NCBI GenBank assembly: GCA_040905365.1 | Contig: JBBDRQ010000061.1 | Location: 21,079 to 85,078 of the forward strand | Reading direction: 5' to 3' | Source of the DNA: Actinomycetota bacterium | GTDB lineage: Bacteria; Actinomycetota; CADDZG01; JAHWKV01 | DNA: 64,000 bases | Part shown: piece by piece, positions 5,585-44,376 of the stretch | Layout: every line of letters starts with the position of its first letter | Position numbering within the stretch: position 1 is the first letter of the stretch | Program-made: the position numbers and the translations under genes | The notes under the pieces: generated by a model | Seen by the model: only the letters and a program-made list of their open reading frames with translations | Database searches by the model: none | Told to the model about the DNA's origin: nothing

Positions 5585-5986
5585 GTGGACGCAGAGTTTG
5601 GCATGGGAGTCAGGGTCGAGGTCGAATTTTCGGCGGTCGTGTCCCGGACCCGTATCTGTTTGAGGGCACATGGTTTTTCCATTCTCTCGGAGATGCCGGC
5701 CCCCGTAGGATCCGGTGACGAGTCCGGAAGGCGCTACCTGTTCATGGCGGTTTGGGAACGCCTGATCAGCGCAGGCAATCTAGGAGGTCCTGGTCTGGAT
5801 GTGGGTGACCATCTGCCGTGCAACGTCGTGGTCTTCGAGGAAGGCGACTCGGTCGTCGTCTCGTACCTCGACCCCACCGAGGGCATGGAAGGTTGGCCCG
5901 AGGGTGTCCGGGAAGCTCAGGCTGCGCTCAAAGCGCTGCAGGAGGCTGCGTCAGAGGTGCGCCGGTGGGTGCCGGCAACTGAGTAG
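5585..5986 (+). CDS. DUF302-like small protein
   Basis: 133 aa; RAHGFSIL ... LPCNVVVFEEGDSVVVSYLDP resembles the DUF302 core (GF.vl ... LPCrv.vye.dg.v.vs..dP). Confidence 0.45.
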   Translation: MDAEFGMGVRVEVEFSAVVSRTRICLRAHGFSILSEMPAPVGSGDESGRRYLFMAVWERLISAGNLGGPGLDVGDHLPCNVVVFEEGDSVVVSYLDPTEGMEGWPEGVREAQAALKALQEAASEVRRWVPATE

Positions 5987-6181: not shown

Positions 6182-6236
6182 GTGCTCGGCCGTCGCTATA
6201 CTCGACGGTGCGCAGGCCGTGTTAACAGGAGGATGA

Positions 6237-7388
6237 ATGGACAAGATCACCGGTCAGGAGTTGCTGAGGCAGGCGAAGGCCAAGGCGAACGCGCTCAGCC
6301 CGGACGCGGTCGCCTCGCTCGTCGACGACGAAGATGTGACCCTGGTCGACGTCCGGGAGGGAGACGAATGGCGTAAGGGACACCTTCCTCGCGCCGTCCA
6401 CGTTCCCCGTGGCTACCTGGAGATGCAGGCCGAGGGCAAGCTGCCCAGCAAGGACTCCCCCCTTATCGTTTACTGCGCGGGCGGGAATCGATCGGCGTTT
6501 GCCACCGAGACTTTGAAGCAGATGGGCTACAGCAACGTACGTCATATGAGCGGGGGATTCACGGCCTGGAAGGACGCCGGCTTGGAGGTGGTTCAACCGC
6601 GGGTATGGACCGATAAGCAAATGGACCGCTACTCCCGGCACTTCGTCCTACCGGAGGTGGGCGAGGCGGGGCAGCAAAGGATCTCCGACAGCAAGATCCT
6701 GGTTATCGGCGCCGGAGGCCTGGGCTCGCCGGCCCTTTACTACCTGGCTGCGGCAGGCGTGGGAACGCTCGGCATAGTGGACATGGATGACGTGGAGGTC
6801 AACAATCTGCAGCGCCAGATCATCCACGCGACCTCGCGCATCGGTGTGAACAAGGCAGAGAGCGCCAAGGCCACGATCGAGGACCTCAATCCCAACGTCA
6901 GCGTCGAGGTCTGGACCGACCCGCTCGGTCCCGACAACGTCGACGAGGTGTTTCGCGGATTCGACATCGTGCTCGACGCGACCGATAACTTCTCTACCAG
7001 ATACCTAATCAACGAAACCGCCTACCGGTTCGGGATTCCGAGCATCTACGGCTCGATCTACCGTTTTGAGGGGTACGCGAGTGTGTTCTGGCCGGCCAAG
7101 GGCGGGCCTTGCTACCGTTGCATGCATCCAGAGGCGCCGCCTGCAGAACTTGCCCCCACCTGAGGGGAAGCCGGAGTCCTGGGCGTGCTCCCAGGAGTGA
7201 TCGGAGTTTTGCAGGCGAACGAGGCCCTGAAGATGCTGGTGGGTTACGGCGAGCCCTTGGTCGGCAGGATCTTGACCTTCGACGCACAGGCCACCGCGTT
7301 TGGTGAACTCAAGCTGCGTCGTGACCCCAACTGCGTTACGTGCGGGTCCGGAGATCAAACCGAACAGGAAGCTCGCAAGAGCGCTTGA
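6237..7388 (+). CDS. Rhodanese-MoeB/ThiF-family adenylyltransferase fusion interrupted by an in-frame TGA at 7161-7163 (candidate selenocysteine codon)
   Basis: Has a rhodanese active-site loop YCAGGNRS; a ThiF nucleotide-binding VIGAGGLGSP motif; a CYRC ... CVTCG zinc motif. ORF-track pieces 6237..7163 and 7185..7388 are in the same frame. The TGA aligns with the Cys of MoeZ SCAEGGVLG / E. coli MoeB TCVEAGV. A hairpin TCCTGGG-CGTGCT-CCCAGGA lies at 7177..7196. Confidence 0.7.
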
Positions 7389-7748
7389 TTAGCGCCGGCG
7401 CCGGCCTCGGTTTCCGCCTGCGCCTCCGCGGCGCCTTTGACCGGGCCGCCGGCTGCGCTTGCGCGGGGGAGACTGACTGCTGTCTCGGGCAGGAAGCGGT
7501 TCGCGGTTTGCCAGGGATAGGGCTACCGCGTCGGACACTTCCTCGCAGATCTTCTCGCCGCCGTCGGTTCCGATGATCAGTTGGAACAACACGCTGCGCT
7601 CCAGCTGCTCAATGGAGTCGACGACCTTACTGCGGGTGCCCGCAGGGGTCCGCCATTCAGCGTGGATGCGTCCAGATGGTGGGATTTCTACCTTGAGATC
7701 GGCGTTACCGACTCTGCCCTCCCAGGCTATGGAGGAGGCTAGATTCAA
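7389..7748 (-). CDS. Hypothetical protein with Arg-rich C-terminal tail, possibly translationally coupled to cspA
   Basis: Its TTG start overlaps the cspA stop (TTGA). 119 aa ending [24 protein letters not shown]. No homology recognised; it could be a GC-shadow ORF. Confidence 0.25.
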
Positions 7749-10814: not shown

Positions 10815-11249
10815 CTGCCTATCTTCTCACCAGCTTCCCCGCCGCGAGTTGGTGGAGCGAGTTTGTAGGGTTGCTCCGGCCGCCGGGTTCACTGGTTGTC
10901 GACAAATGCTTTCGTGTAGACTTCGAGACGTTGCGGCCAGCGAATGTGACAGTAGTGAAAATGGGGGTAAATGTTGTGGATATAGACCTAGTCAACCCGA
11001 CTCTATTCGTGATTTTGTGCGTACTTGGGCTCGTGTACGTTTTGGCTCTGGCTCTTAGGAACTAATCCAACTAGGTATAAGTACCAAGCGAGAATTCTCA
11101 CCGGGTTCTTCCTCGGCGGGAGGCCGCGTTGGCGGCTCACGGTCCCGGTTGGCCGGCAGTTGTATCCGGAGCGAGTGGGAAGCAACCGGCTCATCTGTGG
11201 CTGGCCCGTGCCCCGATTTAACTGAATACTCACTCAGGAGGATTCCTAC

Positions 11250-11411
11250 TTGTCCTATCTAATTTTCGCCGTGGTCTTGGCGGCGGTGATGATCACCTTC
11301 TTGTCGATAAAGTTTCGCCCGACAACCGATCCGTCGAAGTCGGTGGACTCGTTTCAGCGAGCTATTGAGGCGCTCGCTCAGGAAAGCGAGAGCAAGGGTC
11401 AGTCGCACTAG
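11250..11411 (+). CDS. Small membrane protein (53 aa)
   Basis: AGGAGG 8 nt upstream of a TTG start, then one hydrophobic helix (LIFAVVLAAVMITFLSI). It is below the ORF-track size cutoff. Confidence 0.3.
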   Translation: MSYLIFAVVLAAVMITFLSIKFRPTTDPSKSVDSFQRAIEALAQESESKGQSH

Positions 11412-11472
11412 CGGTGTCGCCGCGCGGGGTCTCATCGGATGCGAGTCCTTGTCCCTAGGCGCGGGGCTGTAA

Positions 11473-12480
11473 TTGCGACGTGATCTTGCCATCGATCTGG
11501 GAACTGCTAACACCCTGATCTATGCGAGCGGCCGCGGGATAGTTCTAAACGAACCCACTGTCGTTGCCCTCAACCGAGAGAACGGACGTGTTCTTGCTTT
11601 GGGCAACGCGGCGTTCGAACTGATCGAGTCCACGCCTGGATATGTGGTGGCCGAGCGTCCGTTAAGGCGAGGCGCCATCAGCGACTTCGATATGACCCAG
11701 CGCTACATCCGCATGCTGATGGAGAAGGTCGGGGTTCGGCGCCGCATCGCCAGGACTCGGGTCCTGATTTGCATTCCGTCGGCTATAACCGGGGTAGAGC
11801 GACGGGCCGTACAGGATGCAGCCATCGGGGCCGGCGCCCGTTCTGCGTACTTGATCGAGGAGCCCGTGGTGGCGGCCATAGGAGCCGGGTTGCCGATTCA
11901 AGACCCGATCGGGAACCTGATCGTCGACGTAGGGGGCGGCACTAGTGAAGTTGGCGTCATATCGATGGGCGGCGTGGTCGTGGACAAGTCGATCCGGGTC
12001 GGCGGGTTCGATATCGACGACGCGATAACCAAGTACATCCGGGACCGCTATTCGATAGTGGTAGGGGAGCGTACCGCCGAGCAGATCAAGATAGCTATTG
12101 GATCCGCCTTTCCGCTCGCCGAGGAAACCACCGCCGAAATAAAGGGACGGGATTTGGGTACCGGGCTCCCCAAGACGATTCAAATATCCTCCGAGCAGGT
12201 TCGTGCGGCGATCGAAGAACCGGTCTCGCAAATCATCAAAGCTGTGGTGACCGCTCTGGCTCAAACGCCTCCGGAGCTGGGCCAGGACATCCTGACCCGG
12301 GGGATCGCTCTGACGGGCGGCGGAGGCATGCTGCGTGGGCTCGACATCCGAATCGCCGAAGAGTGCGATGTCCCCGTACACTTGACTGATCGTCCGCTGG
12401 AATGTGTAGTGCGTGGCGCTGGCAAGTGTCTCGAGACGTTCCATCTTGTGAAGGATTTGTTCGCTACCTCAAACCCCTGA
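11473..12480 (+). CDS. mreB: Rod shape-determining protein MreB (actin homologue)
   Basis: DLAIDLGTANTLIY ... phosphate-1/2 and adenosine motifs. TTG start. No mreCD follow. Confidence 0.9.
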   Translation: MRRDLAIDLGTANTLIYASGRGIVLNEPTVVALNRENGRVLALGNAAFELIESTPGYVVAERPLRRGAISDFDMTQRYIRMLMEKVGVRRRIARTRVLICIPSAITGVERRAVQDAAIGAGARSAYLIEEPVVAAIGAGLPIQDPIGNLIVDVGGGTSEVGVISMGGVVVDKSIRVGGFDIDDAITKYIRDRYSIVVGERTAEQIKIAIGSAFPLAEETTAEIKGRDLGTGLPKTIQISSEQVRAAIEEPVSQIIKAVVTALAQTPPELGQDILTRGIALTGGGGMLRGLDIRIAEECDVPVHLTDRPLECVVRGAGKCLETFHLVKDLFATSNP

Positions 12481-20640: not shown

Positions 20641-23526
20641 ATGGTGACGAAGCTTCCTTCGCCCGGATCCGGGCGACCGCTGCGGACGGTCCTGATCGGA
20701 CTGATTTTTGTCGTCATAATCTCGCTGTCGGCAATTGTCAGCCTGTACGTCGACCTGCTTTGGTTCCAGGAGGTCGGCTTCGATTCGGTGTTCTGGAAGA
20801 TCCTGTCCTCGCAAGCCTTCCTGGTGGCAGCGTTCGGTTTGGTCTTTTTTGTTTTTTGTCTCGTCAATCTGATCGTCGTCTCCCGATCCAGCCCCACTTA
20901 TCCGATGACCGACCCGGACGACCCGTTGGAGCGGCTGCGAGAAGCCTTGATTCCACTTCCCAAATGGATTCTTATCGGCGCCAGCGCGCTGCTGGCGTTT
21001 CTGTTTGCTTTGCGATTGGCTCCCGCTTGGGAGCTGTTTTTGCTGTCGAACAACCAGGTGCCCTTTGGGATCGAGGACCCGGTGTTCCAAAAGGACATCG
21101 GTTTTTACGTCTTTCGGCTGCCCATGCTGCAGTTGACCTATCAGTGGCTGTTCTCGGCAGTATTCGTGGTGATCCTGCTGGTGGCAGGTACCTATTACCT
21201 CACGGGAGGCATCCGGCCCCAGGCGGCGATCGATCGGGTGTCGGCCAACGTAAAGGTCCACTTGTCCGTGCTGATCGGCCTGCTGGCGCTGCTAAGGGCG
21301 TGGGGCTACCGGCTTGACCAGTTCGAGCTTTTGTACTCCGAGCGGGGGACGGTGTCGGGAGCGTCCTACACCGATGTAACCGCCGAGCTGCCGGCTCTGA
21401 ATTTGTTGCTTGTGGTTTCGATAATCGGCGCAATCTTGTTCCTCGTAAATATTCGCTTCAGGGGCTGGGCGCTGCCTGCCATCGGTTTGGGTCTGTGGGT
21501 CCTCACCTCGGTTCTGGCCGCCGGCGTCTACCCGGCGGTCATCGAGCGCTTTCGGGTAGAGCCGGCTCAGCTGCAAAGGGAGCGGCCTTACCTGGAACGC
21601 AATCTCGAGTCGACCCGGTCCGCCTATGGATTGGATGCCATGGAGGTTACCCAGTTTCCGATCGAGCCGGGCTTGAGCGCCGAAACGGTGGAGGGTAACG
21701 ACAACACCTTGGACAACGTCAGGCTCTGGGATCCCCAGACGTTGAAGACCGCGTACCGCCAGCTCCAGGAGATCCGGACCTACTACCAGTTTCAAGACGT
21801 GGACGTGGATCGCTACACGATCAACGGGCAGCGCCGGCAGTTGATGCTGGCGCTGCGCGAGCTCGACGTCAGCGGATTGGAGAGCCGGTCTTGGCTAAAC
21901 GATCACTTGGTTTACACGCACGGCTACGGTGCGGTTGCCAGCCCCACCAACGACACCGAGGGGGAGGGACGCCCACGGCTGCTGCTGCGGGACATACCTC
22001 CAGCCAGCGGTGTGGACCGGCTGGACATAGAGCGATCCGGCATCTACTTCGGCGAAGGCCCCGCTACTTACTCGGTGGTCAAGACGGAGCAATTGGAGCT
22101 TGACTACACCGCCGAGGGCGAGAACCGGACTACCGAATATGCGGGCGAGGCCGGCATCCCCATCTCCAACCTCTTCCGGCGGGCGGCGCTGGCTTGGAAT
22201 TTCCGGGACGTCAACCTGCTGATCTCCAGCCTTATCGACTCCGACTCCGAGATCCTGACCAACCGCAATATCCGCCAGCGCGTGCAGAAGGTGGCTCCGT
22301 TTCTGGAATTAGACGGCGATCCGTACCCGGTGATCGCCGACGGAAAGATCACATGGATGCTCGACGCCTACACGGTCTCGGGCATGTACCCGTATTCGCA
22401 GCACTTCGACTTCCAGGGCCTCTCGATGATCCGCGGGGGTGCATCGGAGGGTCAACCCAGCATCTTTGGCACGAACAACTACATACGCAACTCGGTGAAA
22501 GTGACCGTCGACGCGTACGACGGCACGATCAAGCTGCACGTATGGGACGAGGACGATCCGATTATCCGGGCCTGGCGCAGCGCCTTTCCCGATCTTTTCG
22601 TCGATCAGGACGCGATGCCCGCGGAGTTGAGGGAGCACATTCGCTATCCCGAGGATCTGTTCCGCATCCAGGCCAACGTGTATCAGCGCTACCACATGAC
22701 CAACATCACCGAGTTCTACCAGCGCGAGGACCAATGGGTCATTCCGGATCAACCGGAGGGTATAGCCGCCAGCGGCGGCGCCAGATCCAACAAGCTGGAC
22801 CCCTACTACGTGTTGATGCGGCTCCCCGACGCCGATGCCGACCAGTACGTGATGATCCTGCCGATGAACCCGCGTGGCCGCCCCAACATGGTGTCCTTGC
22901 TGGCCGCCAAATCCGATCCGGACGAGTTTGGCGAGCTGGTCGATTTGAGGTTCCCTGCAGGCCTGCAGGTGTTCGGTGTGGGCCAGGTTCATGCGCGAAT
23001 CAACGCCAACGAGGAGATCTCAGAAACTCGTACTCTGCTGGGCCAGGGCGGTTCCAGGGTAATCTTGGGCAACCTGTTGGTCCTGCCGATCGGTGATTCG
23101 CTGGTGTACTCGCAGCCGCTGTTCGTGCAAGCCGAATCCAACGCTATCCCGGAGCTCAAGTACGTGATCCTGGCCACCTCGGACCAGGTCCGTATGGCGC
23201 CGACGGTCGAGTTGGCGCTGGAGGCGCTGCTTAGGGACGGACCGACGGTCGTCGATACCCCCGACGAATTGGACGAGACTCCGGAGGGAGAAGGGGAGCC
23301 GGCCGATCCTCCGCCGCCCGAACCCGAACCCGAACCCGAGCCCGAGCCCGAGCCCGAGCCCGAACCGGAACCCGAACCGCTAACCGGGACGCAGCAGGAG
23401 CTCCTGCTGCAGGCGGCCGAGCACTTCGACGCCGCCGACGAGGCTGCTCGCAACGGCGACTGGGCCACTTACGGCGAGCAGCAGCGCCTGGGCCGGGAAG
23501 CGATTAGCGAGGCCCTGGGCGGCTAG
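20641..23526 (+). CDS. UPF0182-family large polytopic membrane protein with C-terminal (PE)n repeat
   Basis: 961 aa with 7 or more N-terminal TM helices and a large extracytoplasmic domain. It resembles mycobacterial Rv3193c-type proteins. Confidence 0.85.
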   Translation: MVTKLPSPGSGRPLRTVLIGLIFVVIISLSAIVSLYVDLLWFQEVGFDSVFWKILSSQAFLVAAFGLVFFVFCLVNLIVVSRSSPTYPMTDPDDPLERLREALIPLPKWILIGASALLAFLFALRLAPAWELFLLSNNQVPFGIEDPVFQKDIGFYVFRLPMLQLTYQWLFSAVFVVILLVAGTYYLTGGIRPQAAIDRVSANVKVHLSVLIGLLALLRAWGYRLDQFELLYSERGTVSGASYTDVTAELPALNLLLVVSIIGAILFLVNIRFRGWALPAIGLGLWVLTSVLAAGVYPAVIERFRVEPAQLQRERPYLERNLESTRSAYGLDAMEVTQFPIEPGLSAETVEGNDNTLDNVRLWDPQTLKTAYRQLQEIRTYYQFQDVDVDRYTINGQRRQLMLALRELDVSGLESRSWLNDHLVYTHGYGAVASPTNDTEGEGRPRLLLRDIPPASGVDRLDIERSGIYFGEGPATYSVVKTEQLELDYTAEGENRTTEYAGEAGIPISNLFRRAALAWNFRDVNLLISSLIDSDSEILTNRNIRQRVQKVAPFLELDGDPYPVIADGKITWMLDAYTVSGMYPYSQHFDFQGLSMIRGGASEGQPSIFGTNNYIRNSVKVTVDAYDGTIKLHVWDEDDPIIRAWRSAFPDLFVDQDAMPAELREHIRYPEDLFRIQANVYQRYHMTNITEFYQREDQWVIPDQPEGIAASGGARSNKLDPYYVLMRLPDADADQYVMILPMNPRGRPNMVSLLAAKSDPDEFGELVDLRFPAGLQVFGVGQVHARINANEEISETRTLLGQGGSRVILGNLLVLPIGDSLVYSQPLFVQAESNAIPELKYVILATSDQVRMAPTVELALEALLRDGPTVVDTPDELDETPEGEGEPADPPPPEPEPEPEPEPEPEPEPEPEPLTGTQQELLLQAAEHFDAADEAARNGDWATYGEQQRLGREAISEALGG
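23317..23379 (+). repeat. Tandem hexanucleotide repeat (CCCGAR)x10 encoding (Pro-Glu)n within the UPF0182 C-terminus
   Basis: The repeat is read directly from the sequence. It is in-frame within the UPF0182 gene. Confidence 0.8.
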
Positions 23527-24432: not shown

Positions 24433-24604
24433 GTTGCGTTCCCCTTTCGCCGGGTTGCTCTGTGTGGGCAGCCTGACGTCTGCTCGGCGCGGGCGGTAGA
24501 TGCAAGTGGCCCGGCTTCTACGGGGCTTTAGGCCCTTAGCTCGATGTGCAGCAGGTGGCTCGGCAGGTCTGAGCACGGACTTCCCGGCCCTGGGCGTGCG
24601 CCGG

Positions 24605-24960
24605 GTGCCGGAGAAGACTCGAAAGACGGCGCCCGTGGCTCTTGCGGCCGCGGCCGCCTGCACGTCCGGGCAAAACGACTCCTCACCGTCGCCGAAGGCG
24701 GCAGCTACCGTGCCCGACGCCGCTACCGCGACGCCGGATCCGCCGGGCGGCACCGCCCCTTCGATGCAGACCAACTCAGCTCGACAGGCGGCCGAAGTGC
24801 CGCCGATTGTGGACTTCACCGCGTCCCGGTTGGGCGGCGGGGAGGTGGTCGGCGCCGAGCTGGCCGGAAACCACGTGGCTATGTGGTTTTGGGCTCCCTG
24901 GTGACCCACCTGCAATGCGGAAGCTTCCGATGTCGCACAGGTGGTGCGAGAGTATGAGTG
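24605..24960 (+). pseudogene. Truncated TlpA/ResA-like thioredoxin-fold lipoprotein fragment with TGA in place of the first Cys of the CxxC motif
   Basis: GTG 24605; signal peptide with AAAAAC lipobox; ... GEVVGAELAGNHVAMWFWAPW-TGA(24902-04)-PTCNAEASDVAQVVREYE matches FWASWCGPCRAEAP.L..L...Y. Homology ends about 20 codons later and the region then overlaps the cupredoxin gene on the opposite strand. Confidence 0.55.
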
Positions 24961-25016
24961 GTGCCTGTATCCGCACCGGCGGAACCGAGGTGGTGCTTTC
25001 TTTGGAACCACGGGCC

Positions 25017-25469
25017 TCAGTCGTTCACTACGAGTGTGCCCACCATTCCGGCTTGGGCATGTCCGGGAATTGTGCATTCAAACCGGTACCGTCCGGCGTC
25101 GGTTACCTCAAGCCCTCCCGTGGATCGCCGGCCTGCATTGGCTCTCAGCTGGAAATCTAGTTCGACGATGGTGAAATCGTGGATCAGCGCGCCTCGATTG
25201 CTCAGGCCGATATTGACCGGTTCCCCTGCGGTGATTTCGATCCTGGAGGGGTCGAAAACGAATTCACCGGCTTGGACCTCGATCTGCTCGCCGCCCCGGA
25301 TGCGGGGTGGAAGTGGGCCGCTATCGTCTACACGCCAGCCCATCATCGTCCCGTGCGGATGATAGGACCAGCCGGCGCCGCTTCCGGAGGAAACCGCCAT
25401 GCCGACCAACCCCACCACCAACGACGCGACTCCACCGATCAGCAAAGCGCGCGAAGGCATCCGTGTCAC
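25017..25469 (-). CDS. Secreted cupredoxin-like copper-binding protein
   Basis: N-terminal signal/TM segment; FECTIPGHAQAGMVGTLVV gives type-1 Cu ligands (Cys, His, Met). Confidence 0.8.
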   Translation of the reverse strand: MTRMPSRALLIGGVASLVVGLVGMAVSSGSGAGWSYHPHGTMMGWRVDDSGPLPPRIRGGEQIEVQAGEFVFDPSRIEITAGEPVNIGLSNRGALIHDFTIVELDFQLRANAGRRSTGGLEVTDAGRYRFECTIPGHAQAGMVGTLVVND

Positions 25470-36467: not shown

Positions 36468-37277
36468 TCATGCGCTGAGGTCGACCGCGGCCGCGTCCGT
36501 CAGGCGGTCGAGCGCCTGATCCAGGTACGTCCTGAGGACTAATGAGTCATCTGCCAGCGCGCTGGCCAAGGCTGCCGGGCCGGCCAGCGGCATGATTGCC
36601 GCGGTTTGCGACAGGATCTTGGGCTGGGCCGGCTGCCCGGCCAGGTGGGGCGCGGCTACGAGCAAGCTGCCCACCGCCTTTGCGGAGCCGACCGCTGCCG
36701 GGCCGTCCCATCCGCGGGAGCGGCCTGCGATTACCTGCTCGTTACGGTAGACCGGTTGAGCTTCGATCACGCAGTCCATTCGGCTTGAGCCCGATCCGGG
36801 CCGTTCCCCGTGGCGCCCCAGGATCAACTCTTCTCGCCATACCAACCGGGCGTCTGCAGACACATGCACCGCACATTGGATGTGGTGGCGGCAGCCACCT
36901 GCCAGGATGGTCGGCTCGGTCAGCCACCTGAGCTCGGCGCCTTCGGCGACGGTGGCGTCGATACGCAGGCGTGATGGCTGCCCGAGCCGTCCCGGCAGCG
37001 CGACGCTGGCGGCCGTGCTGTGCACGCTCAGTTGAGCGCCGGGCCCCACCTCTATTCGCAGACGCGCCTCATCACCGCCGAGAGGTCCGGCGGCCCCGCC
37101 GACCAGGTACAGGCCGCCGGGAGTGGGTCGCAGGAGGAGGGGCGCCTCGGAGCGCATGTGGATAAGCCGGGTGATCCCGCCCGAAAGCTCGGCCACCACG
37201 TGGCTGCTGGAGCGCATCGTGGTTAGAGTGCGGCCGGGGCGGGCCCGGCCCACAAACCGATCTGCCCGGTCAGCCAC
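36468..37277 (-). CDS. ureD: Urease accessory protein UreD (UreH)
   Basis: The family resembles UreD. The start could alternatively be the ATG at 37217. Confidence 0.75.
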
Positions 37278-37864
37278 TCCACCACCTCGCCGGCTCCATC
37301 GGGCGTGCTGAGCGCACAGAACACCATGTCCTTGTCCCCGCGCTGGGCGACCGAGTCCCGGCGCATGACTTCCAAGTCCGCCCCGACCAAAGGGGCCAGA
37401 TCGATCTTGTTGATTACGAGCAGGTCGGCAAGGGTGACGCTCGGGCCGCCTTTGCGGGGGACCTTATCGCCGCCGGAGACGTCCAGCACGAAGATCTGCC
37501 GGTCCACCAAACCCTGGCTGAAGGTGGCGGTGAGGTTGTCGCCGCCGCTCTCCAGCAACACCACGTCCAGGGGATCGAATCGCCGCTCCAGATCCTCGAC
37601 GGCCTCGAGGTTCTCGGAGATGTCGTCGCGGATGGCCGTGTGCGGGCAGCAGCCGGTTTGGACTGCGCTGATGCGCTCGGAGGCCAGCACCCCCTGAGTC
37701 CTGAGGAAATCGGCGTCCTCGGTCGTGTAGATGTCGTTGGTGACCACGGCGATGTTGAACCGGTCTGCCAGCGCCCGGCACAGCGCGGCCACCAGGGCAG
37801 TCTTGCCGCTTCCTACCGGTCCTCCTACACCGACCCGCAGGGGACGCTTGGGTTCAGGATGCAA
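37223..37864 (-). CDS. ureG: Urease accessory GTPase UreG
   Basis: P-loop GPVGSGKT; CCPH motif. Confidence 0.9.
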
Positions 37865-38522
37865 ATAACTTCACCTCCGAGACTGCGTGTTGTTCGCCGA
37901 ACAGATCGAGCAGCACCGATCCGGGGCAGGGCAGGGTGTCCAATGCCGCGTACGTGTATGAGGTCGCTTCTTCCACCACCTCTTCGACCGCACCCGAAAG
38001 CTTCGCCAGCAGCCGGTGGACCTGTACGGGATCGATTCCCAACAGCCGAACCGCGGCGCCGGCCGGTCCGGCTATGGCGTTGAAAGCGGTGCACCTGGCG
38101 GCATCGGCGGCCCGCAGACCGGCGGCAGCCGTCGCGGCGCCCATCGCGACTGGGTGGTGGGGTCCATCGGGAATTTGCCACGCCAGGGCGTCGAGCTTGT
38201 CCGGCCACAGCCGGCCGGCCGTTCGGATCAACTGTTTGCCTTGCCGGCGGGAAGCCCGGCGGATGGCCGGCGACGGGGTGCGAGCGTCGGCCTCCGCGTC
38301 CAGGTCCCGCCAGTCTTCGCGCTCTACGCTTGCCGCGGCAGCCAGGGCGGCGGCGCTCAGGCCCGCTGTAAACAGCCGGCCGAGCAGGAACCGGCCCAGC
38401 GAATCCAAGTCGGTGACCCGACCGGCGGCGACCGCGCTCTCCATTCCCCCCGAATGGGCGTGGCCGCCGGCCGGAAACCTTCCGTCAGCGAGCAGCAGGG
38501 CGTTGACCGGAGCGCCGCCCAT
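37854..38522 (-). CDS. ureF: Urease accessory protein UreF
   Basis: The internal ATG overlaps the ureC stop (TGATG). The ORF-track extension to 38924 lies inside ureC. Confidence 0.75.
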
Positions 38523-40228
38523 CAAAACAGGAAGTACCGCTGGGCCATCGGGAGCTCGACCGCCGGGTCGGCGTCTATGGCCTCTCCGTCGATGGTCACA
38601 GTGAATGTATCGGGCTCCACCTCGATTCGGGGTAGAGCGTCGTTTTGGGGCATGTCGGCTTTGCCGCGCTTGCGCACGTCTGAGACCGGAACCACCCTGC
38701 GATTTAGCTGGAGCGTCTCGGCAATCCCGCCTTCGAGCGCGGCCGGCGCCACAAAGGCGACGCTCGTCTTGCCGGCCGCGACGCCGTAGGCTCCGAACAT
38801 CGGCCGGGGCAGTACCGGCTGCGGCGTGGGAATCGATGCGTTGGCGTCGCCCATGGCAGCCCAGGCGATCATGCCGCCCTTGACTACCACATGGGGCCGG
38901 ACACCGAAGAACGCCGGGTCCCACAGCACCAGGTCCGCCAGCTTGCCTGGTTCGACCGAACCCACCTCGGCCTCGAGCCCGTGGGCCACGGCGGGGCAGA
39001 TCGTGTACTTGGCCACGTAACGCCGGGCCCGGCGGTTGTCGGCGGGGCCGTCGCCCGGCAGGGATCCCCGCCTATGTTTCATGCAGTGCGCGGTCTGCCA
39101 GGTTCTCGACACCACCTCGGCAACCCGGCCCATGGCCTGGGCGTCGGAGCCGATCATGGAGATGGCGCCCATATCGTGCAGGACGTCCTCTGCGGCGATC
39201 GTCGACGGCCGGATCCGGCTCTCGGCAAAGGCCAAATCCTCGGGAACTGCAGGGTTGAGGTGGTGGCAGACCATGAGCATGTCGAAGTGCTCGTCGATGG
39301 TGTTGCGCGTGTGCGGCCGGGTCGGGTTGGTCGACGACGGCAGGAAGTTGGGCTGCCCGGCTACGGTGATGATGTCGGGGGCGTGCCCGCCGCCCGCCCC
39401 TTCGGTGTGATAGGCGTGAATGCTGCGTCCCGCCGCTGCCGCTATCGTGTCCTCCACGAAGCCGGCTTCGTTCAAGGTGTCGGTGTGCACCGCCACCTGG
39501 ACGCCCGCTTCGTCGGCGACGCTTAGGCAGGCGTCGATGGCGGCCGGTGTGGTGCCCCAGTCCTCGTGCAGCTTGAGCCCGCTGGCGCCACCCCGCAACT
39601 GCTCCCACATGGCCTCGGCAGAGGTCGTGTTGCCCTTGCCCAGCAGGGCTATGTTGATCGGCCAGGGGTCTATGGCCTCCAGCATTCGACGCAGGTGCCA
39701 GGCACCGGGGGTGACAGTGGTGGCCTTCGACCCCTCCGCCGGACCCGTGCCTCCGCCGACGATGGTGGTGATGCCGGTACCCAGCGCCTCCTCAAAGATT
39801 TGGGGGCACACCAGGTGTACGTGACAGTCGATCGCCCCAGGGGTGAGGATTTTGCCGTTGCCGGCGATTACCTCCGTGCCGGGGCCGATCACCAGCTCCG
39901 GGCTGACGCCGTCCATGGTGTCGGGGTTGCCGGCCTTGCCGATACCTGCGATGCGGCCGTCGGCAATGCCTACATCCGCTTTGATGATTCCCCAATGGTC
40001 GAGGATGAGGGCACCGGTTATTACGGTGTCGAGCGCCCCCTCGGCCCGGGTGGCGCGGGACTGGCCCATCGATTCGCGAACCACCTTGCCGCCGCCGAAC
40101 ACCGCCTCGTCGCCGCCGGCACACAGGTCCTGTTCTACCTCGATGAGCAGGTTGGTGTCGGCAAGCCTGATGCGGTCCCCGGTAGTGGGGCCGAATAGGG
40201 CGTTGTAGTGGGAGCGGTCCAACTGCAT
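38522..40228 (-). CDS. ureC: Urease alpha subunit
   Basis: 568 aa with an amidohydrolase fold, His ligands, and the MVCHHL and GSD motifs. Confidence 0.95.
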
Positions 40229-40231
40229 GTC

Positions 40232-40570
40232 TTAGTTTCCTTTCGGGTCCAAGGCGCCGGCCGCCTCGCCTCGCAGTCCGTAGATGATGCGCCGTCCGCC
40301 GAACGGCACCAGCTCTACCTCGGAGACGATTCCCGGCTCAAATCGCACCGCGGTCCCGGCGGCGATGTTGAGGCGCATGCCCCACCCGGCGCCGCGGTCG
40401 AACGACAGTGCCGGGTTGGCCTCCGCAAAGTGGTAGTGCGACCCGACCTGGATGGGCCTGTCGCCGGTATTCGACACCCGAACCCGGGTAACCGGCTTGC
40501 CGGCGTTGATCGTCACGGGATCGATTCCTACGATGACTTCACCGGGAATCACGGGTTGAGAATCGCTCAT
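40232..40570 (-). CDS. ureB: Urease beta subunit
   Basis: 112 aa; UreB family. Confidence 0.9.
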
Positions 40571-40869
40571 GAGACCGGCTCGTGCAGGGTCACCAGCTTG
40601 GTGCCGTCCGGGAAAGTCGCCTCCACCTGCACCTCGGGAATCATCTCGGGCACCCCCTCCATTACGTCGGTGCGACCGAGCACACTGCGGCCGCTCTCCA
40701 TCAGGTCGGCGACAGTTCTGCCGTCCCGGGCTCCTTCGAGGACAAAGGAGGTCAGCAGAGCCACCGCCTCCGGGTGGTTGAGCTTCAAGCCCCGGTCCCG
40801 GCGCTGTTGAGCCAGGTTCGCCGCGACGTGGATGAGCAGGCGCTCCTGCTCGTGTACGGAAAGTCTCAT
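40567..40869 (-). CDS. ureA: Urease gamma subunit
   Basis: 100 aa; [17 protein letters not shown]. Confidence 0.9.
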
Positions 40870-40890
40870 ATTCTCCTCACGCGCATGTCG

Positions 40891-41586
40891 TCAAATGAGT
40901 AGTAGTTGTCGCATCTCGGCGTCGTCCAGGTCCTCGGTGCGGCCGGCCGAAGCCACCATCCCGGCGTCCAGGATCGCGTAGTGCTCGGCGAGCCGCAGCG
41001 CAAACTCCATGTACTGCTCCACCAGCACAATAGTCATGCCCGACGCTGCGCTGAGGCCGGCAACGGCGTCCTCGATCTCCATGATGATCGACGGCTGGAT
41101 GCCCTCGGTCGGCTCGTCGAGGATCAGCAGCTTGGGTTTGGTGACCAGCGCCCGCGCTATCGCCAGTTGGGCGGCTTCTCCGCCGGATAGAAAACCGGCC
41201 TTTCGAGCCATCAGCTTTTTCAACCTGGGGAACAGGTCGAGGGCCTCGTCAACGTCGGCCTTGGTGGAGCGGTCCGACGCGTTGCTCACCACCTTCAGGC
41301 TTTCGAGCACCGTCAACTGCGGAAAGCCTCCTCGGGTCTGCGGTACGTAGGCCATTCCGGCCTGGACCCGCTGATAAGGGTGCATCTTGCCCATATCCTT
41401 GCCCTCGAAGAGGATCTTTCCTCGGGTAGGCCGCAGGATCCCCATAATGGCGTTGAGCAACGTCGTCTTTCCCACGCCGTTGCGGCCCATTATGCAGAAC
41501 AGTTCCCCGGCGGCCACTTCGAGGTTGACGTCGAACAGAACCTGAGTAGGTCCGTAGGCCACATCCAGGTGATCAACCTTGAGCAT
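40891..41586 (-). CDS. urtE: Urea ABC transporter ATP-binding protein UrtE
   Basis: Walker A GRNGVGKT. The internal ATG overlaps the urtD stop (TGATG). The ORF-track extension to 42495 is spurious. Confidence 0.85.
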   Translation of the reverse strand: MLKVDHLDVAYGPTQVLFDVNLEVAAGELFCIMGRNGVGKTTLLNAIMGILRPTRGKILFEGKDMGKMHPYQRVQAGMAYVPQTRGGFPQLTVLESLKVVSNASDRSTKADVDEALDLFPRLKKLMARKAGFLSGGEAAQLAIARALVTKPKLLILDEPTEGIQPSIIMEIEDAVAGLSAASGMTIVLVEQYMEFALRLAEHYAILDAGMVASAGRTEDLDDAEMRQLLLI

Positions 41587-42356
41587 CACTGCACCGGCTC
41601 CTGAGTGCGGCGGTCGTGGGCCCTGCCCAGGTAGACCTCCTGCACCAGCGGATCCGCCTGGACGTCGGCCACGGCCCCTTCCTTGAGCAGCTTGCCCTCG
41701 TGCATAACGGTTACCTTGCTGGCAAAGCGCCGGACGAAGTCCATGTCGTGCTCGATTACGACCAGTGTCCGTGTCTTGGCGATCTGCTGTAGAAGCGCCC
41801 CCGTCTTGGTTCGCTCGGTCTTGCTCATGCCGGCGACCGGCTCGTCGAGTAGCAGCAACTGCGGATCCTGGACTAGCAGCATCCCGATCTCCAGCCACTG
41901 CTTCTGGCCGTGTGACAGTACACCGGCGGGCTGTTCGGCGTATTCGCTCAGCCCGATCGTGGTCAGGGATTCGTCCACTTCCGGGAGCACGCCGTGGCGG
42001 CGCTTGAACAGCTTGCGCAGGGGTTGGCGAAAGTTGGCCGCGAGATCCAGGTTCTCCAGTACGGTCAGCTCCTCGAACACGTTGGCCTTTTGAAAGGTGC
42101 GGCCTATGCCCAGCCTGACGATTTCGAACTCTCGCCTTAGCAGCAGGTTGCGGCCGGCAAAGTCGACCGAGCCGGCGCTCGGTGTCACCAGCCCGGTAAT
42201 GGCGTCGATGAGCGTGGTCTTGCCCGCGCCGTTGGGCCCGATGAGAAAGCGCAGCTCGCCCTCGAAGACGTCGAAATCCAGGCCGTCGATGGCCTTGAAG
42301 CCCTCGAAGTCGACCTGCAGGCCCCGTATTTCCAGCAGCGACTGCCCTAAGGTCAT
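41586..42356 (-). CDS. urtD: Urea ABC transporter ATP-binding protein UrtD
   Basis: Walker A GPNGAGKT; ABC signature LSHGQKQ. Confidence 0.85.
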   Translation of the reverse strand: MTLGQSLLEIRGLQVDFEGFKAIDGLDFDVFEGELRFLIGPNGAGKTTLIDAITGLVTPSAGSVDFAGRNLLLRREFEIVRLGIGRTFQKANVFEELTVLENLDLAANFRQPLRKLFKRRHGVLPEVDESLTTIGLSEYAEQPAGVLSHGQKQWLEIGMLLVQDPQLLLLDEPVAGMSKTERTKTGALLQQIAKTRTLVVIEHDMDFVRRFASKVTVMHEGKLLKEGAVADVQADPLVQEVYLGRAHDRRTQEPVQ

Positions 42357-43498
42357 TTGGCCGAAATCCTCGCAGGCTCGGCAATACCGGTGCTGGGCGG
42401 CTCGGCGACCGTGGAACCGTCAGTCTGCGGCTGTCCGGCGATACCAGTGCGTCGCTTGAAGAGCTTCGCCAGGCCCGCAAGCCCCTTGGGCGCAAACGCG
42501 ATTACCACCACGAACAGCAGCCCCTGCAGGTACAGCCAGCCGCCCGGGTACGCTTCGCTGAGCGAGGTTTTGGCGAGGTTGACCAAGACCGCGCCGATCA
42601 CCGCCCCGATCAAGGTTCCCCTTCCTCCCAGGGCGACCCAGATGACCATCTCGATAGAAGGCACCACCCCGATGGTCGCGGGCGAGATGATGCCGACCGT
42701 GGGCACGAACAACGCTCCGGCCAAGCCGGCCATGCCGGCCGAGAGGCTGAAGGCGACGACCTTGATGATCGTTGGGTTGTAGCCGAGGAACCGGACGCGG
42801 TCTTCACGGTCGCGGACCGCCATGAGCACCCTGCCGTAGCGGCTCTGCACCACCTGCCGCGCCAGCAGGTACGTAGCTCCCAAGCACAGCACCGCCACGA
42901 AGTACAGACCGCGCCGGTTGGCTGTGTTGTTCAGGTCGTAGCCCAGTATCCGGGTGATGTTGGTCAGCCCGTTGGTGCCTCCGGTCAGGGCCTGCTGACC
43001 GACCAGCAGCACCGCGAAGGCGGCGACTAGTGCCTGGCTCATGATGGCGAAGTAGGGGCCGCGCACCCGCCGGCGGAACACCGCGGCACCCAGAGCTGCC
43101 GCCACGGCCATCGGTACGAGTATCGCCGCAGGTATCGCAAACCAGGCGCTGTAGAAAGGCTTCCACAGCGTGGGCAGCTCGCGTATACCGCTCCAGGCCA
43201 TGAAGTCGGGGAGGCGGCCGGGGCCTACCTCCTGGAGTTTTAGCATCATTCCCATGCAGTAGGCGCCGAGTCCAAAGAAGACCCCCTGCCCTAGGGTCAG
43301 CATTCCGCCGTAGCCCCAGGCTATGTCGATGCCGATCGCAACGATAGCGAAGCACAGATACTTGCCCAGCAACGCCAGCCTAAATCCGCTCAATAGTGCC
43401 GGTGCGACGACCAGCAGGAGTAACCCGATCGCGAGGAAAGTCCCGCGGCGTATCCAGGCGGATCGGGTGGAGTCTTTCCGAATGCTTGCAATGCTCAT
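42353..43498 (-). CDS. urtC: Urea ABC transporter permease UrtC
   Basis: Branched-chain amino acid/urea permease family. Confidence 0.8.
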   Translation of the reverse strand: MSIASIRKDSTRSAWIRRGTFLAIGLLLLVVAPALLSGFRLALLGKYLCFAIVAIGIDIAWGYGGMLTLGQGVFFGLGAYCMGMMLKLQEVGPGRLPDFMAWSGIRELPTLWKPFYSAWFAIPAAILVPMAVAAALGAAVFRRRVRGPYFAIMSQALVAAFAVLLVGQQALTGGTNGLTNITRILGYDLNNTANRRGLYFVAVLCLGATYLLARQVVQSRYGRVLMAVRDREDRVRFLGYNPTIIKVVAFSLSAGMAGLAGALFVPTVGIISPATIGVVPSIEMVIWVALGGRGTLIGAVIGAVLVNLAKTSLSEAYPGGWLYLQGLLFVVVIAFAPKGLAGLAKLFKRRTGIAGQPQTDGSTVAEPPSTGIAEPARISAK

Positions 43499-44376
43499 GT
43501 CAGAGCCCTGCTGCGCATCACGAACATCCCCTGGGGACGAATCTGCAGGAACGCTGCTATAGCTAGGAACACCACTACCTTGGCGATGCTGGCCCCGGTG
43601 CTGAACTCTACGAAGGAGTTGAGCAGGCCCAGGGCTGTCGCGGCAATGATTGCCCCGCGCACCTGACCGAGCCCGCCGACCACGACTACCAAGAACGCGT
43701 CGACGATGTAAAACGTGCCCAAGGCGGGTCCGGTGGAGCCGATCAGGGTAAGCGCGACTCCTGCGATCCCGGCCAGCCCCGAGCCGATGAAGAAGGTCAT
43801 CCGGTCGATGCCGTGAGTCTTGAGGCCGCTACAGGAGGCCAACTGGCGATTTTGCATCACGGCCCGCATGCGGGCTCCTTGGGGGAGCCGGTTTAGAAAC
43901 AGCCAGATGCCCACCACGCACAACACCACCAGCGCCATGATGAACATCCGCGAGATCGCGATCTGGGCACCCGCCAGTGTCACACTGCCTCCCAGCCACT
44001 GTGGTGCTCTCACCTGGACGTTGGGGGCGCCGAAGATGTCCCGGGCCAGTTGCTGCAATATCAAGCTGACCCCCCAGGTGACCAGCAGCGTGTCCAGCGG
44101 CCGTCCGTAGAGACGCCGGATCAACACCATCTCGAGAATCAGGCCGAAGGTGCCGGCCACCGCAAAGGCGACCGGCACCGCGACCAGCAGCGAGATGTCC
44201 TGGCCCAGGGAGTTCTGCAGGACGTAGGCCGTGTAGGCTCCGGCCATGATGAACTCTCCGTGGGCCATGTTGATCACGCCCATCTGCCCGAAGGTGAACG
44301 TGAGCCCCAGGGCGATGAGAATCAGGACCGAGCCTATGCTCAGCCCGGACAGCAGCTGTCCTGCAAATGCCTCCAT
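43495..44376 (-). CDS. urtB: Urea ABC transporter permease UrtB
   Basis: Branched-chain amino acid/urea permease family. Confidence 0.8.
   Translation of the reverse strand: MEAFAGQLLSGLSIGSVLILIALGLTFTFGQMGVINMAHGEFIMAGAYTAYVLQNSLGQDISLLVAVPVAFAVAGTFGLILEMVLIRRLYGRPLDTLLVTWGVSLILQQLARDIFGAPNVQVRAPQWLGGSVTLAGAQIAISRMFIMALVVLCVVGIWLFLNRLPQGARMRAVMQNRQLASCSGLKTHGIDRMTFFIGSGLAGIAGVALTLIGSTGPALGTFYIVDAFLVVVVGGLGQVRGAIIAATALGLLNSFVEFSTGASIAKVVVFLAIAAFLQIRPQGMFVMRSRALT

What the first reader, a model, noticed from the sequence alone, without database searches (positions are those of the whole stretch)
6237..7388. In-frame UGA at the conserved Cys of a rhodanese-MoeB/ThiF fusion, with a hairpin 13 nt downstream: candidate selenocysteine protein
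The ORF-track pieces 6237..7163 and 7185..7388 share a frame. Read through the TGA (7161-7163) they give ...CYRCMHPEAPPAELAPT-U-GEAGVLGVLPGVIGVLQANEALKML...CVTCG. This aligns residue for residue with MoeZ (PSCAEGGVLG) and E. coli MoeB (TCVEAGVMAPLIGVIGSLQAMEAIKML...CEVCG). The TGA falls exactly on the Cys equivalent to ThiF C184 / MoeB C187 / MOCS3 acyl-disulfide Cys. Thirteen nt after the UGA lies a hairpin UCCUGGG-CGUGCU-CCCAGGA (7177-7196), in the position where bacterial SECIS elements sit. From memory, a MoeB-type selenoprotein family and rhodanese-type selenoproteins were reported in prokaryotic selenoproteome surveys. Rhodanese N-terminal to ThiF is also the reverse of the MoeZ order. 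A second TGA-for-Cys occurs about 17 kb away (see the TlpA-like finding), which argues against a random error.
Basis: partly seen in the sequence, partly recalled or inferred. Interest (0 to 1): 0.8.

Follow-up and report, generated by a model that had tools for sequence, protein, structure and literature searches.

The report
Selenocysteine-containing rhodanese–MoeB sulfur-carrier activating enzyme
This gene almost certainly encodes one 383-residue rhodanese–MoeB/ThiF enzyme in which an in-frame UGA is read as selenocysteine at the catalytic loop cysteine; it is real, but it belongs to a "MoeB" selenoprotein family first published in 2005.

Summary
ORF 6237..7163 ends in TGA (7161-7163), and the same frame runs on to 7388. 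The joined 383-aa product is rhodanese + ThiF/MoeB. The TGA aligns with E. coli MoeB C187, ThiF C184 and the Uba4 catalytic Cys. A hairpin, CCUGGG-CGUGCU-CCCAGG, starts 13-14 nt downstream.

The same TGA occurs in 23 related loci from Actinomycetota MAGs and metagenomes (47-95% aa identity). All keep a conserved downstream ORF. Fifty-seven Cys-form relatives were read (54 in the codon count, plus L161-L163).

The five codons forming most of the hairpin have one codon each in all 21 TGA forms, but 4-6 codons in 54 Cys forms. Gene-wide, they are the only 5 invariant codons among 69 conserved degenerate sites. Codons between the TGA and the hairpin vary synonymously, so they are translated.

Pseudogene, sequencing error and split gene are therefore excluded. 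Sec recoding is the best explanation (about 0.9).

It is not new. The Sargasso Sea "MoeB" selenoproteins (2005) have Sec at the same residue and the same hairpin loop. What differs here is the N-terminal rhodanese (NF006444 type) and a terrestrial Actinomycetota clade that databases annotate as truncated.

selA/B/C/D could not be checked. The "second TGA" (TlpA-like) is weak support.

The parts
6227..6232 (+). Shine-Dalgarno-like AGGAGG, 4 nt upstream of the ATG
   Evidence: Read directly from the sequence.
6237..7388 (+). Full coding sequence of the selenoprotein: 383 codons plus the terminal TGA stop (7386-7388), with an internal UGA at codon 309
   Evidence: Single frame with one internal stop. 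Pfam Rhodanese + ThiF. NCBIfam NF006444 matched over its full length, 507 bits against a cutoff of 449. The downstream part is conserved in all TGA-carrying relatives through the second CxxC motif.
6297..6575 (+). Rhodanese domain (residues 21-113). The active-site loop C80-A-G-G-N-R has its Cys80 codon at 6474-6476
   Evidence: Pfam PF00581, 84 bits. The loop YCAGGNRS is conserved in relatives.
6630..7334 (+). ThiF/MoeB adenylation domain (residues 132-366). It includes the nucleotide-binding G158-A-G-G-L-G163 (6708-6725) and the zinc-site cysteines C292/C295 (7110-7121) and C366/C369 (7332-7343)
   Evidence: Pfam PF00899, 263 bits. Residue-by-residue alignment to E. coli MoeB and ThiF. The model of the 73%-identical Cys form superposes on 1jw9_B and 1zud at TM 0.95, rmsd 1.6-1.8 A.
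7161..7163 (+). In-frame UGA read as selenocysteine (U309). It is equivalent to MoeB C187, ThiF C184 and the Uba4 catalytic Cys on the crossover loop
   Evidence: Alignment. TGA at this codon in 23 related loci; TGC/TGT in the 54 Cys forms and in L161-L163. Same position as 'u' in the published Sargasso MoeB selenoproteins.
7164..7176 (+). 13-nt spacer (codons +1 to +4: G E A G). It is translated: the amino acids are conserved while the codons vary synonymously
   Evidence: Codon +4 uses GGA/GGT/GGC/GGG, +3 uses GCC/GCT/GCG and +2 uses GAA/GAG across 21 TGA forms.
7177..7196 (+). SECIS-like hairpin. The stem is (U)CCUGGG / CCCAGG(A), core 7178-7183 paired with 7190-7195. The 6-nt apical loop CGUGCU lies at 7184-7189
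   Evidence: MFE and alignment folds. Codons +5 to +9 are invariant in all 21 TGA forms but use 4-6 codons in 54 Cys forms. They are the only 5 invariant codons among 69 conserved degenerate positions in the gene. 96.7% of cells are paired in 26 sequences, including the Sargasso ones, and changes are wobble-compatible.

Best explanation
Positions 6237-7388 are one gene for a 383-residue selenoprotein. It has an N-terminal rhodanese sulfurtransferase domain fused to a MoeB/ThiF-type adenylyltransferase domain. The UGA at 7161-7163 is recoded to selenocysteine. The likely mechanism is a bacterial SECIS hairpin that starts 13-14 nt downstream (CCUGGG-CGUGCU-CCCAGG), lies inside the coding sequence for V-L-G-V-L-P-G, and recruits SelB with Sec-tRNA(Sec).

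By analogy with MoeB, ThiF and Uba4/MOCS3, the enzyme would act in three steps. It adenylates the C-terminal glycine of a small sulfur-carrier protein (MoaD, ThiS or CysO type). The residue on the flexible crossover loop, here Sec309, attacks the acyl-adenylate or resolves the acyl-persulfide intermediate. The persulfide on rhodanese Cys80 supplies the sulfur that ends up as the carrier's thiocarboxylate.

Shown here: the conserved in-frame UGA, translation beyond it, hairpin constraint coupled to the UGA, the domain identities, and the equivalence of residue 309 to the catalytic or crossover-loop Cys. Inferred: SelB dependence, actual selenium insertion, the chemical role of Sec, and the identity of the carrier protein. 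A MoaE gene lies next to the orthologue in two related loci, which points to molybdenum cofactor synthesis.
For: (1) The TGA falls on the Cys187/Cys184/Uba4 catalytic Cys column.
(2) The same codon is TGA in 18 species-level Actinomycetota genomes, 2 further metagenome loci and 3 more contigs. Pairwise aa identity among 19 of these TGA forms (the window plus 18 loci) is 47-95%. Each has 65-120 further in-frame codons ending after the conserved second CxxC motif.
(3) 81 of the best 120 database homologues cover only about 80% of the query. All 10 that were read end in ...APT, which is the signature of gene callers stopping at a Sec codon. One contig has the gene called as 306 aa plus a 72-aa 'ThiF (weak)' piece.
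(4) Full-length homologues have Cys at this position, including a syntenic orthologue (L162).
(5) Codons +5 to +9 (GTC CTG GGC GTG CTC) have zero synonymous variation in 21 TGA forms. The same amino acids show 1.4-1.8 bits of codon entropy in 54 Cys forms. Codon +10 is only CCA or CCG, giving U-A or U.G pairs. These are the only 5 invariant codons among 69 conserved degenerate positions.
(6) Codons +1 to +4 vary synonymously while the amino acids stay conserved, so the ribosome reads through.
(7) The published Sargasso Sea MoeB selenoproteins have 'u' at the same place and the same loop and stem.
(8) The loop is small and contains G, the bacterial SECIS feature named in PMC1088965.
(9) Other genes in the window have normal lengths, and this gene itself ends in TGA, so UGA is not generally reassigned.
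(10) The Uba4 equivalent Cys202 forms the thioester that the rhodanese persulfide then attacks (PMC7527816). The loop carrying the residue is the low-confidence, flexible part of the model.
Against: No selA, selB, selD or tRNA-Sec was found in the 64-kb window, in the tRNA scans of 20 related loci, or in the +-10 kb gene tables of three more. The rest of the genome could not be searched.

The hairpin's folding energy is not better than shuffled sequence. No base pair shows a compensatory double change; only wobble-compatible single changes occur. No Rfam family matches.

There is no direct evidence of selenium incorporation. From memory, Cys187 is dispensable in E. coli MoeB, so the chemical role of the residue in this subfamily is inferred from ThiF and Uba4.
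Confidence: 0.88

Rival explanations
1. SelB-independent read-through. The UGA is decoded by a near-cognate tRNA (Trp, Cys or Arg) or by a lineage-specific suppressor, and the conserved hairpin merely stimulates read-through by pausing the ribosome.
For: Translation past the UGA is shown, but the identity of the inserted residue is not. The Sec machinery was not found in the sequence available.
Against: The UGA sits exactly on a Cys column, which is the classic Sec/Cys pair. The hairpin has the position, size and G-containing small loop of bacterial SECIS elements. It is shared with the published MoeB selenoproteins. UGA is used as an ordinary stop by this gene and its neighbours.
Confidence: 0.05
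2. Split gene. Translation terminates at the UGA, giving a 308-residue rhodanese-ThiF fragment, and restarts at GTG 7185 to give a 67-residue C-terminal piece. The two pieces then assemble.
For: An in-frame GTG lies at 7185 and a GGAG lies 8 nt upstream of it in the window. Gene callers predict two ORFs.
Against: The seven codons between the TGA and the GTG (G/S-E-A-G-V-L-G) are conserved as amino acids. Codons +1 to +4 also vary synonymously, so they are translated. The GGAG is present in only 5 of 21 TGA forms, because codon +4 is GGT, GGC or GGG in the others. The GTG lies inside the hairpin loop. A break here would cut the catalytic crossover loop.
Confidence: 0.03
3. Pseudogene or assembly error. 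The TGA is a nonsense mutation or a miscalled TGC/TGT.
For: A single window cannot exclude this on its own.
Against: The same TGA is present in 23 independently assembled loci with 47-95% aa identity, conserved synteny and an intact downstream frame under purifying selection.
Confidence: 0.01

Closest known systems
'Molybdopterin biosynthesis MoeB protein' selenoprotein family (Zhang, Fomenko & Gladyshev 2005, Sargasso Sea, PMC1088965; also GOS 2008, PMC2398784; listed in the reviews PMC9312934 and PMC13188914)
   Same: Sec sits at the identical residue (...GGPCYRCLYSEPPPAALVPSuAVAGVLGVLPG...). The SECIS has the same position and the same loop, CGUGCU. Two Sargasso entries have the identical core GTCCTGGGCGTGCTCCCGGG.
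   Different: The one Sargasso sequence long enough to show it (AACY01471790) has the rhodanese domain C-terminal to ThiF (MoeZ order); here it is N-terminal. The published members are marine, whereas these are Actinomycetota MAGs and other metagenome contigs (environments were not examined). Residue +1/+2 is AV there and G/S-E here. No published member has been characterised experimentally.
NCBIfam NF006444 (PRK08762), 'molybdopterin-synthase adenylyltransferase MoeB' with an N-terminal rhodanese domain
   Same: The match covers the full length (positions 4-373 of 387), at 507 bits against a cutoff of 449. The domain order is the same. Cys-containing members at 57-73% identity include a syntenic orthologue.
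   Different: The curated family and public annotation describe Cys proteins. The TGA forms are deposited as truncated 306-310-aa 'ThiF family adenylyltransferase' entries.
Uba4 / MOCS3 and bacterial MoeZ/MoeBR (adenylation domain plus C-terminal rhodanese)
   Same: The two catalytic modules are the same. The crossover-loop Cys (CtUba4 C202) that forms the thioester with the carrier aligns with U309. The rhodanese persulfide then delivers sulfur.
   Different: The domain order is reversed. The NF005902 (MoeZ) score is 367, below its cutoff of 647. Sec replaces Cys.
E. coli MoeB (1JW9) and ThiF (1ZUD)
   Same: The adenylation fold, the zinc CxxC pairs and the nucleotide-binding loop are shared. 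The model of the Cys form superposes at TM 0.95. ThiF C184 and MoeB C187 align with U309.
   Different: They have no rhodanese domain and carry Cys instead of Sec. From memory, C187 is not essential in E. coli MoeB, whereas ThiF C184 forms an acyl-disulfide with ThiS.

Membership tests
Bacterial selenoprotein gene (SelB/SECIS-dependent UGA recoding) | An in-frame UGA aligned with Cys in homologues (Sec/Cys pair) | tested here: met
   U309 aligns with MoeB C187 and ThiF C184. The codon is TGC/TGT in the 54 Cys forms and in L161-L163, and TGA in 23 related loci.
Bacterial selenoprotein gene (SelB/SECIS-dependent UGA recoding) | The UGA is conserved among orthologues, and the downstream ORF is conserved at protein level | tested here: met
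   There are 65-120 downstream codons running through the second CxxC motif. Codons +1 to +4 vary synonymously.
Bacterial selenoprotein gene (SelB/SECIS-dependent UGA recoding) | A stem-loop immediately downstream of the UGA with a small apical loop containing G | tested here: met
   The hairpin lies at 7177-7196 with loop CGUGCU, 13 nt after the UGA. Nucleotide-level conservation is specific to the TGA forms. The criterion is taken from PMC1088965. The energy z-score alone is not significant, and there are no double compensatory changes.
Bacterial selenoprotein gene (SelB/SECIS-dependent UGA recoding) | The genome encodes selA, selB, selC (tRNA-Sec) and selD | not testable with these tools
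   None was found in the 64-kb window or in the flanks of related loci. The rest of the genome is not available. The Sec trait is documented in some Actinobacteria (PMC5029168).
Bacterial selenoprotein gene (SelB/SECIS-dependent UGA recoding) | Selenium is actually incorporated at the UGA | not testable with these tools
   This needs 75Se labelling or mass spectrometry.
MoeB selenoprotein family (Zhang et al. 2005) | A ThiF/MoeB (COG0476) protein with Sec at the crossover-loop Cys that follows the first CxxC motif | tested here: met
   The Sargasso sequences read ...CYRCLYSEPPPAALVPSuAVAGVLGVLPG...; the window reads ...CYRCMHPEAPPAELAPTUGEAGVLGVLPG....
MoeB selenoprotein family (Zhang et al. 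2005) | A homologous SECIS element | tested here: met
   The loop CGUGCU and the stem CCUGGG/CCCRGG are the same. Alignment A3 has 26 sequences with 96.7% of cells paired.
MoeB selenoprotein family (Zhang et al. 2005) | The same domain architecture as the published example (rhodanese C-terminal). This is not a stated defining feature of the family | tested here: not met
   AACY01471790 has rhodanese after ThiF. The window protein has it before ThiF.
NCBIfam NF006444 (PRK08762) rhodanese-MoeB | A whole-protein score above the curated cutoff, with full-length coverage | tested here: met
   507.1 bits against a cutoff of 449, covering profile positions 4-373 of 387. The test used Cys in place of U.
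MoeZ (NF005902) | A whole-protein score above the curated cutoff | tested here: not met
   366.7 bits against a cutoff of 647.
ThiF/MoeB/E1-like adenylyltransferase | The adenylation fold with a GxGxxG nucleotide loop, the RxxR/NLQRQ and DxxDN motifs, and a Cys4 zinc site | tested here: met
   Pfam PF00899, 263 bits. The motifs align to 1jw9 and 1zud. The fold match has TM 0.95.
Catalytically active rhodanese domain | An active-site Cys in a six-residue loop (CxxxxR) | tested here: met
   C80-A-G-G-N-R is present in the window protein and conserved in relatives. Activity itself was not tested.

The most novel reading that the evidence does not exclude
The invariant peptide V-L-G-V-L-P-G that follows the crossover-loop Cys may be a latent SECIS. 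With one particular choice of synonymous codons (GUC CUG GGC GUG CUC CCR GG) it folds into the SelB-type hairpin. Any Cys form could then become a selenoprotein through silent changes plus TGC>TGA. This would explain why the same hairpin and loop appear in three settings: marine MoeZ-order proteins, a distant metagenome lineage (L159) nested among Cys forms, and the Actinomycetota N-terminal-rhodanese clade, which has Cys forms nested inside it. Repeated gain of Sec at this residue would also imply that the crossover-loop residue is a true catalytic nucleophile or leaving group (acyl-selenoester or selenenyl-sulfide intermediate) in rhodanese-fused MoeB enzymes, even though it is dispensable in E. 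coli MoeB.
Probability: 0.3. Interest if true: 0.55.

Novelty: new member of a known kind. Interest (0 to 1): 0.35.

Why it matters
The practical consequence concerns annotation. A whole clade of Actinomycetota genomes, and about two thirds of the closest database entries, carry this enzyme as a truncated 306-310-residue 'ThiF family adenylyltransferase', sometimes with an orphan 65-72-residue ORF beside it. It should be one 380-400-residue selenoprotein. A gene like this is also a useful marker that the lineage decodes UGA as Sec.

Biologically, natural replacement of the crossover-loop Cys by Sec in a rhodanese-fused MoeB points to this residue as chemically active in sulfur relay to carrier proteins. 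Its role has been debated for MoeB, in contrast to ThiF and Uba4. The Sec/Cys pair in syntenic orthologues (window versus L162) offers a ready-made comparison for enzymology. The family itself has been known from marine metagenomes since 2005, so the finding extends that knowledge rather than opening a new topic.

Tried and rejected
- **Thermodynamic test of the hairpin.** The result was z = -0.21, no better than shuffles in this 63% GC sequence. I rejected it as evidence and used comparative data instead.
- **Rfam.** I ran gathering thresholds on the whole window and a permissive E-value scan on 7130-7260. No SECIS family matched; only noise hits appeared (mir-3155, MEG3_2).
- **Covariation counting.** No pair shows changes on both sides within the core stem. 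The arms are also constrained by codons, so classical covariation support is unavailable. A possible outer pair (columns 15/57: CG 14, UA 3) was noted but not pursued.
- **Sec machinery.** The ARAGORN tRNA scan of the window found only tRNA-Met at 23585, and the tRNA scans of 20 related loci found none. Pfam scans of about 40 window ORFs found no SelA, SelB or SelD. The +-10 kb gene tables of L164-L166 also had none.
- **The TlpA-like 'second TGA' at 24902.** Pfam matches only the N-terminal half of a redoxin fold, below cutoff. The fold energy is not significant. A homologue search returned only the fragment itself. I rejected it as supporting evidence.
- **Scan of the window for further in-frame TGAs with coding signal on both sides.** It gave only antisense frames or adjacent genes. 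It also failed to flag 7161 and 24902, so it is not a sensitive test.
- **A sulfur-carrier gene (MoaD/ThiS) next to the gene.** I looked for one and found none. Only MoaE lies nearby, in two relatives.
Full report
**What is in the sequence**

The + strand ORF 6237..7163 (308 codons, ATG preceded by AGGAGG) ends in TGA at 7161-7163. The same frame continues without another stop to the TGA at 7386-7388. With Cys in place of the stop, the 383-residue product matches Pfam Rhodanese (residues 21-113, 84 bits) and ThiF (132-366, 263 bits). It matches NCBIfam NF006444/PRK08762, a 'MoeB' with an N-terminal rhodanese domain, over its full length at 507 bits against a cutoff of 449. The MoeZ model (NF005902) scores below its cutoff (367 against 647).

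**Position of the TGA**

A search of PDB sequences aligns residue 309 with Cys187 of E. coli MoeB (1jw9), Cys184 of ThiF (1zud, 1zfn), and the Cys of 'tsCgeag' in Chaetomium Uba4 (6yub). That Uba4 residue is the crossover-loop Cys202. It forms a thioester with Urm1 before the rhodanese persulfide attacks (PMC7527816).

The two zinc-binding CxxC pairs (C292/C295, C366/C369), the GAGGLG nucleotide loop, and the rhodanese active-site loop C80-AGGNR are all present.

An AlphaFold model of the 73%-identical Cys form P0004 has mean pLDDT 85. It superposes on MoeB and ThiF at TM 0.95 and rmsd 1.6-1.8 A. The only poorly defined internal stretch (residues 311-330) is the loop that carries the equivalent Cys.

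**Is the TGA an error, a pseudogene or a split gene?**

In the homologue search, 81 of the best 120 hits (63-100% identity) cover only about 80% of the query. All ten that I read end in ...APT. The 39 full-length hits (57-73% identity) read ...AP[STN]-C-[GSA]E[AG]GVLGVLPG.

A scan of species-representative genomes returned 18 Actinomycetota MAG loci at 55-89% identity. Every one has TGA at this codon. The metagenome scan added two more TGA forms (L081 and the distant L159) and 54 Cys forms. Three further contigs (L164-L166) show the same TGA.

In all of them the frame stays open for 65-120 codons after the TGA. It runs through the conserved second CxxC motif before the sequences diverge and stop. 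Pairwise identity among 19 of these TGA forms (the window plus 18 loci) is 47-95%.

The neighbourhood is syntenic across these loci: formiminotransferase(-), DUF302(+), the gene(+), a small ORF(-), Csp(-), sigma/anti-sigma(+), zincin(-). Sequencing error and pseudogene are therefore excluded.

Codons +1 to +4 after the TGA (G/S-E-A-G) keep their amino acids while using 2-4 synonymous codons each, so they are translated. This rules out termination followed by restart at GTG 7185. It also matters that the GGAG upstream of that GTG exists in only 5 of 21 TGA forms.

**The hairpin**

UCCUGGG-CGUGCU-CCCAGGA lies at 7177-7196, 13 nt after the UGA. Its folding energy is not exceptional for this GC-rich sequence (z = -0.21), and no Rfam model matches it. 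The comparative signal, however, is strong.

- In all 21 TGA forms, codons +5 to +9 (V L G V L) are GTC CTG GGC GTG CTC without exception. In 54 Cys forms the same five amino acids are encoded by 4-6 codons each, with 1.4-1.8 bits of entropy.
- Codon +10 is only CCA or CCG, which gives a U-A or U.G pair.
- Across the whole gene, 69 columns have a fully conserved amino acid with at least four-fold degeneracy. Only 5 of them have a single codon in all 19 sequences, and these are exactly the five consecutive codons +5 to +9.
- The three closest Cys forms (66-73% identity, one of them in the orthologous syntenic locus) use other codons and cannot form the stem.

RNAalifold recovers the same 6-bp core. 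On 26 sequences, 96.7% of cells pair. The changes seen are wobble-compatible single changes (U-A/U.G, C-G>U.G, G-C>G.U) plus two A.C mismatches. There are no double compensatory changes, as expected for arms that are also codon-constrained.

A small apical loop containing G immediately downstream of the UGA is the bacterial SECIS feature named in PMC1088965. From memory, the GU in the loop matches the E. coli fdhF requirement.

**Comparison with what is published**

A 'molybdopterin biosynthesis MoeB protein' selenoprotein family was reported from the Sargasso Sea in 2005 (11 sequences). It was found again in the GOS data (19 sequences) and is listed in reviews from 2022 and 2026.

The supplementary file of the 2005 paper gives the sequences. 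They read ...GGPCYRCLYSEPPPAALVPSuAVAGVLGVLPGVVG..., so Sec is at the same residue. The DNA after the TGA contains GTCCTGGGCGTGCTCCCGGG in two entries. This is identical to the core here. The other entries carry variants (CCTAGG, CTTGGG, CTTCCG) with the same CGUGCU loop.

The longest Sargasso entry has its rhodanese domain C-terminal, in the MoeZ order. The window gene is thus a member of this known selenoprotein family, but in the N-terminal-rhodanese architecture and in Actinomycetota.

**Evolution**

A neighbour-joining tree of the ThiF domain places 20 TGA forms and 3 Cys forms (L161-L163) in one clade. L159 (TGA) falls among Cys forms elsewhere. Parsimony needs at least 4 Sec/Cys switches. 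The peptide VLGVLPG is invariant in the family. The hairpin can therefore be made or lost by silent changes alone. That may explain the repeated exchange, but gain versus loss was not resolved.

**Function**

The fold, the motifs and the curated family assignment make this a sulfur-carrier-protein adenylyltransferase with a built-in sulfurtransferase. MoaE lies next to the orthologue in a Sec-form locus (L164) and a Cys-form locus (L162). One Cys form (L163) is followed by ThiL-like and ThiD-like genes. The window itself has neither. The carrier is thus probably MoaD, possibly others as well, as for MoeZ.

The proposed chemistry is inferred by analogy with Uba4 and ThiF and was not shown here. 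In this scheme Sec309 acts as nucleophile on the acyl-adenylate, or as the resolving residue for the acyl-persulfide, and Cys80 persulfide acts as the sulfur donor.

**What could not be settled**

The Sec trait does occur in some Actinobacteria (PMC5029168).

Its homology stops about 20 codons later, and a real convergent cupredoxin gene begins at 25017. A database search found only the fragment itself. It may be a remnant of a former UxxC selenoprotein, but it is not independent evidence.

**Verdict**

The family has been known since 2005, so this is a new member of a known kind. It is misannotated as truncated in public databases and is of moderate interest.

Noticed in passing
window 24500-25017 (+), TGA at 24902-24904: A lipoprotein-like ORF has a redoxin/TlpA-type motif, ...AMWFWAPW-TGA-PTCNAEA (UxxC). 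Pfam AhpC-TSA/Redoxin match only the N-terminal half, below cutoff. Homology ends about 20 codons after the TGA. A real convergent cupredoxin gene (25017-25469, -) occupies the space where the rest of the fold should be. It may be a truncated remnant of a UxxC selenoprotein. A homologue search found only itself.
   Followed up: partly
window 39790-40078 (+): An Rfam hit to 5_ureB_sRNA (64 bits, gathering score 40) lies antisense to the urease alpha-subunit gene (38522-40228, -). The Helicobacter sRNA is antisense to the urease coding sequence, so the hit probably reflects conservation of the urease gene rather than an sRNA here.
   Followed up: no
window 7389-7748 (-); also L006 4215-4580, L162 7030-7398, L164 2807-3169: A conserved ~120-residue ORF with no Pfam match and an arginine-rich C-terminal tail always lies between the MoeB-like gene and the cold-shock protein gene, on the opposite strand.
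   Followed up: no
L164 3247-3663; L162 9373-9813: MoaE (molybdopterin synthase large subunit) lies close to the orthologue in one Sec-form locus and one Cys-form locus. It is absent from the corresponding place in the window (10815-11473 holds no such ORF).
   Followed up: partly
L163 1974-3751: A Cys-form relative (P0012) is followed directly by an AIRS/AIRS_C protein (ThiL-like) and a Phos_pyr_kin protein (ThiD-like). This suggests a thiamine link in that lineage.
   Followed up: no
L159 4907 (metagenome contig Ga0302046_10001511): A distant TGA form (47.5% identical to the window protein) sits among Cys forms in the tree. It nevertheless carries the identical hairpin core, and a 36-nt stretch after the TGA differs by one base from L012. 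This could reflect convergence on a latent hairpin or local transfer; the question is not resolved.
   Followed up: partly
L165 10001-10921 and 10943-11161: Public gene calls split the selenoprotein into a 306-aa 'Rhodanese+ThiF' protein and a 72-aa 'ThiF (weak)' ORF. NCBI entries for related MAGs are 309-310-aa 'ThiF family adenylyltransferase'. This is a systematic misannotation.
   Followed up: yes
window 5585-5986 (+): A DUF302 gene lies immediately upstream on the same strand. It is conserved in that position in at least 14 related loci. In some of them (L002-L006) a luciferase-like monooxygenase is inserted between it and the MoeB-like gene.
   Followed up: partly
window 20641-23526 (+): A UPF0182 membrane protein (944 bits) has a C-terminal (EP)n repeat, ...[21 protein letters not shown]....
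   Followed up: no
window 50330-63988: Ku and an ATP-dependent ligase (NHEJ) are followed by a heme-synthesis cluster on the minus strand: a chlorite-dismutase-like (HemQ-type) gene, an aminotransferase class III gene (HemL-like), ALAD, porphobilinogen deaminase and glutamyl-tRNA reductase. A urease operon with a urea/branched-chain ABC transporter lies at 37223-45708.
   Followed up: no
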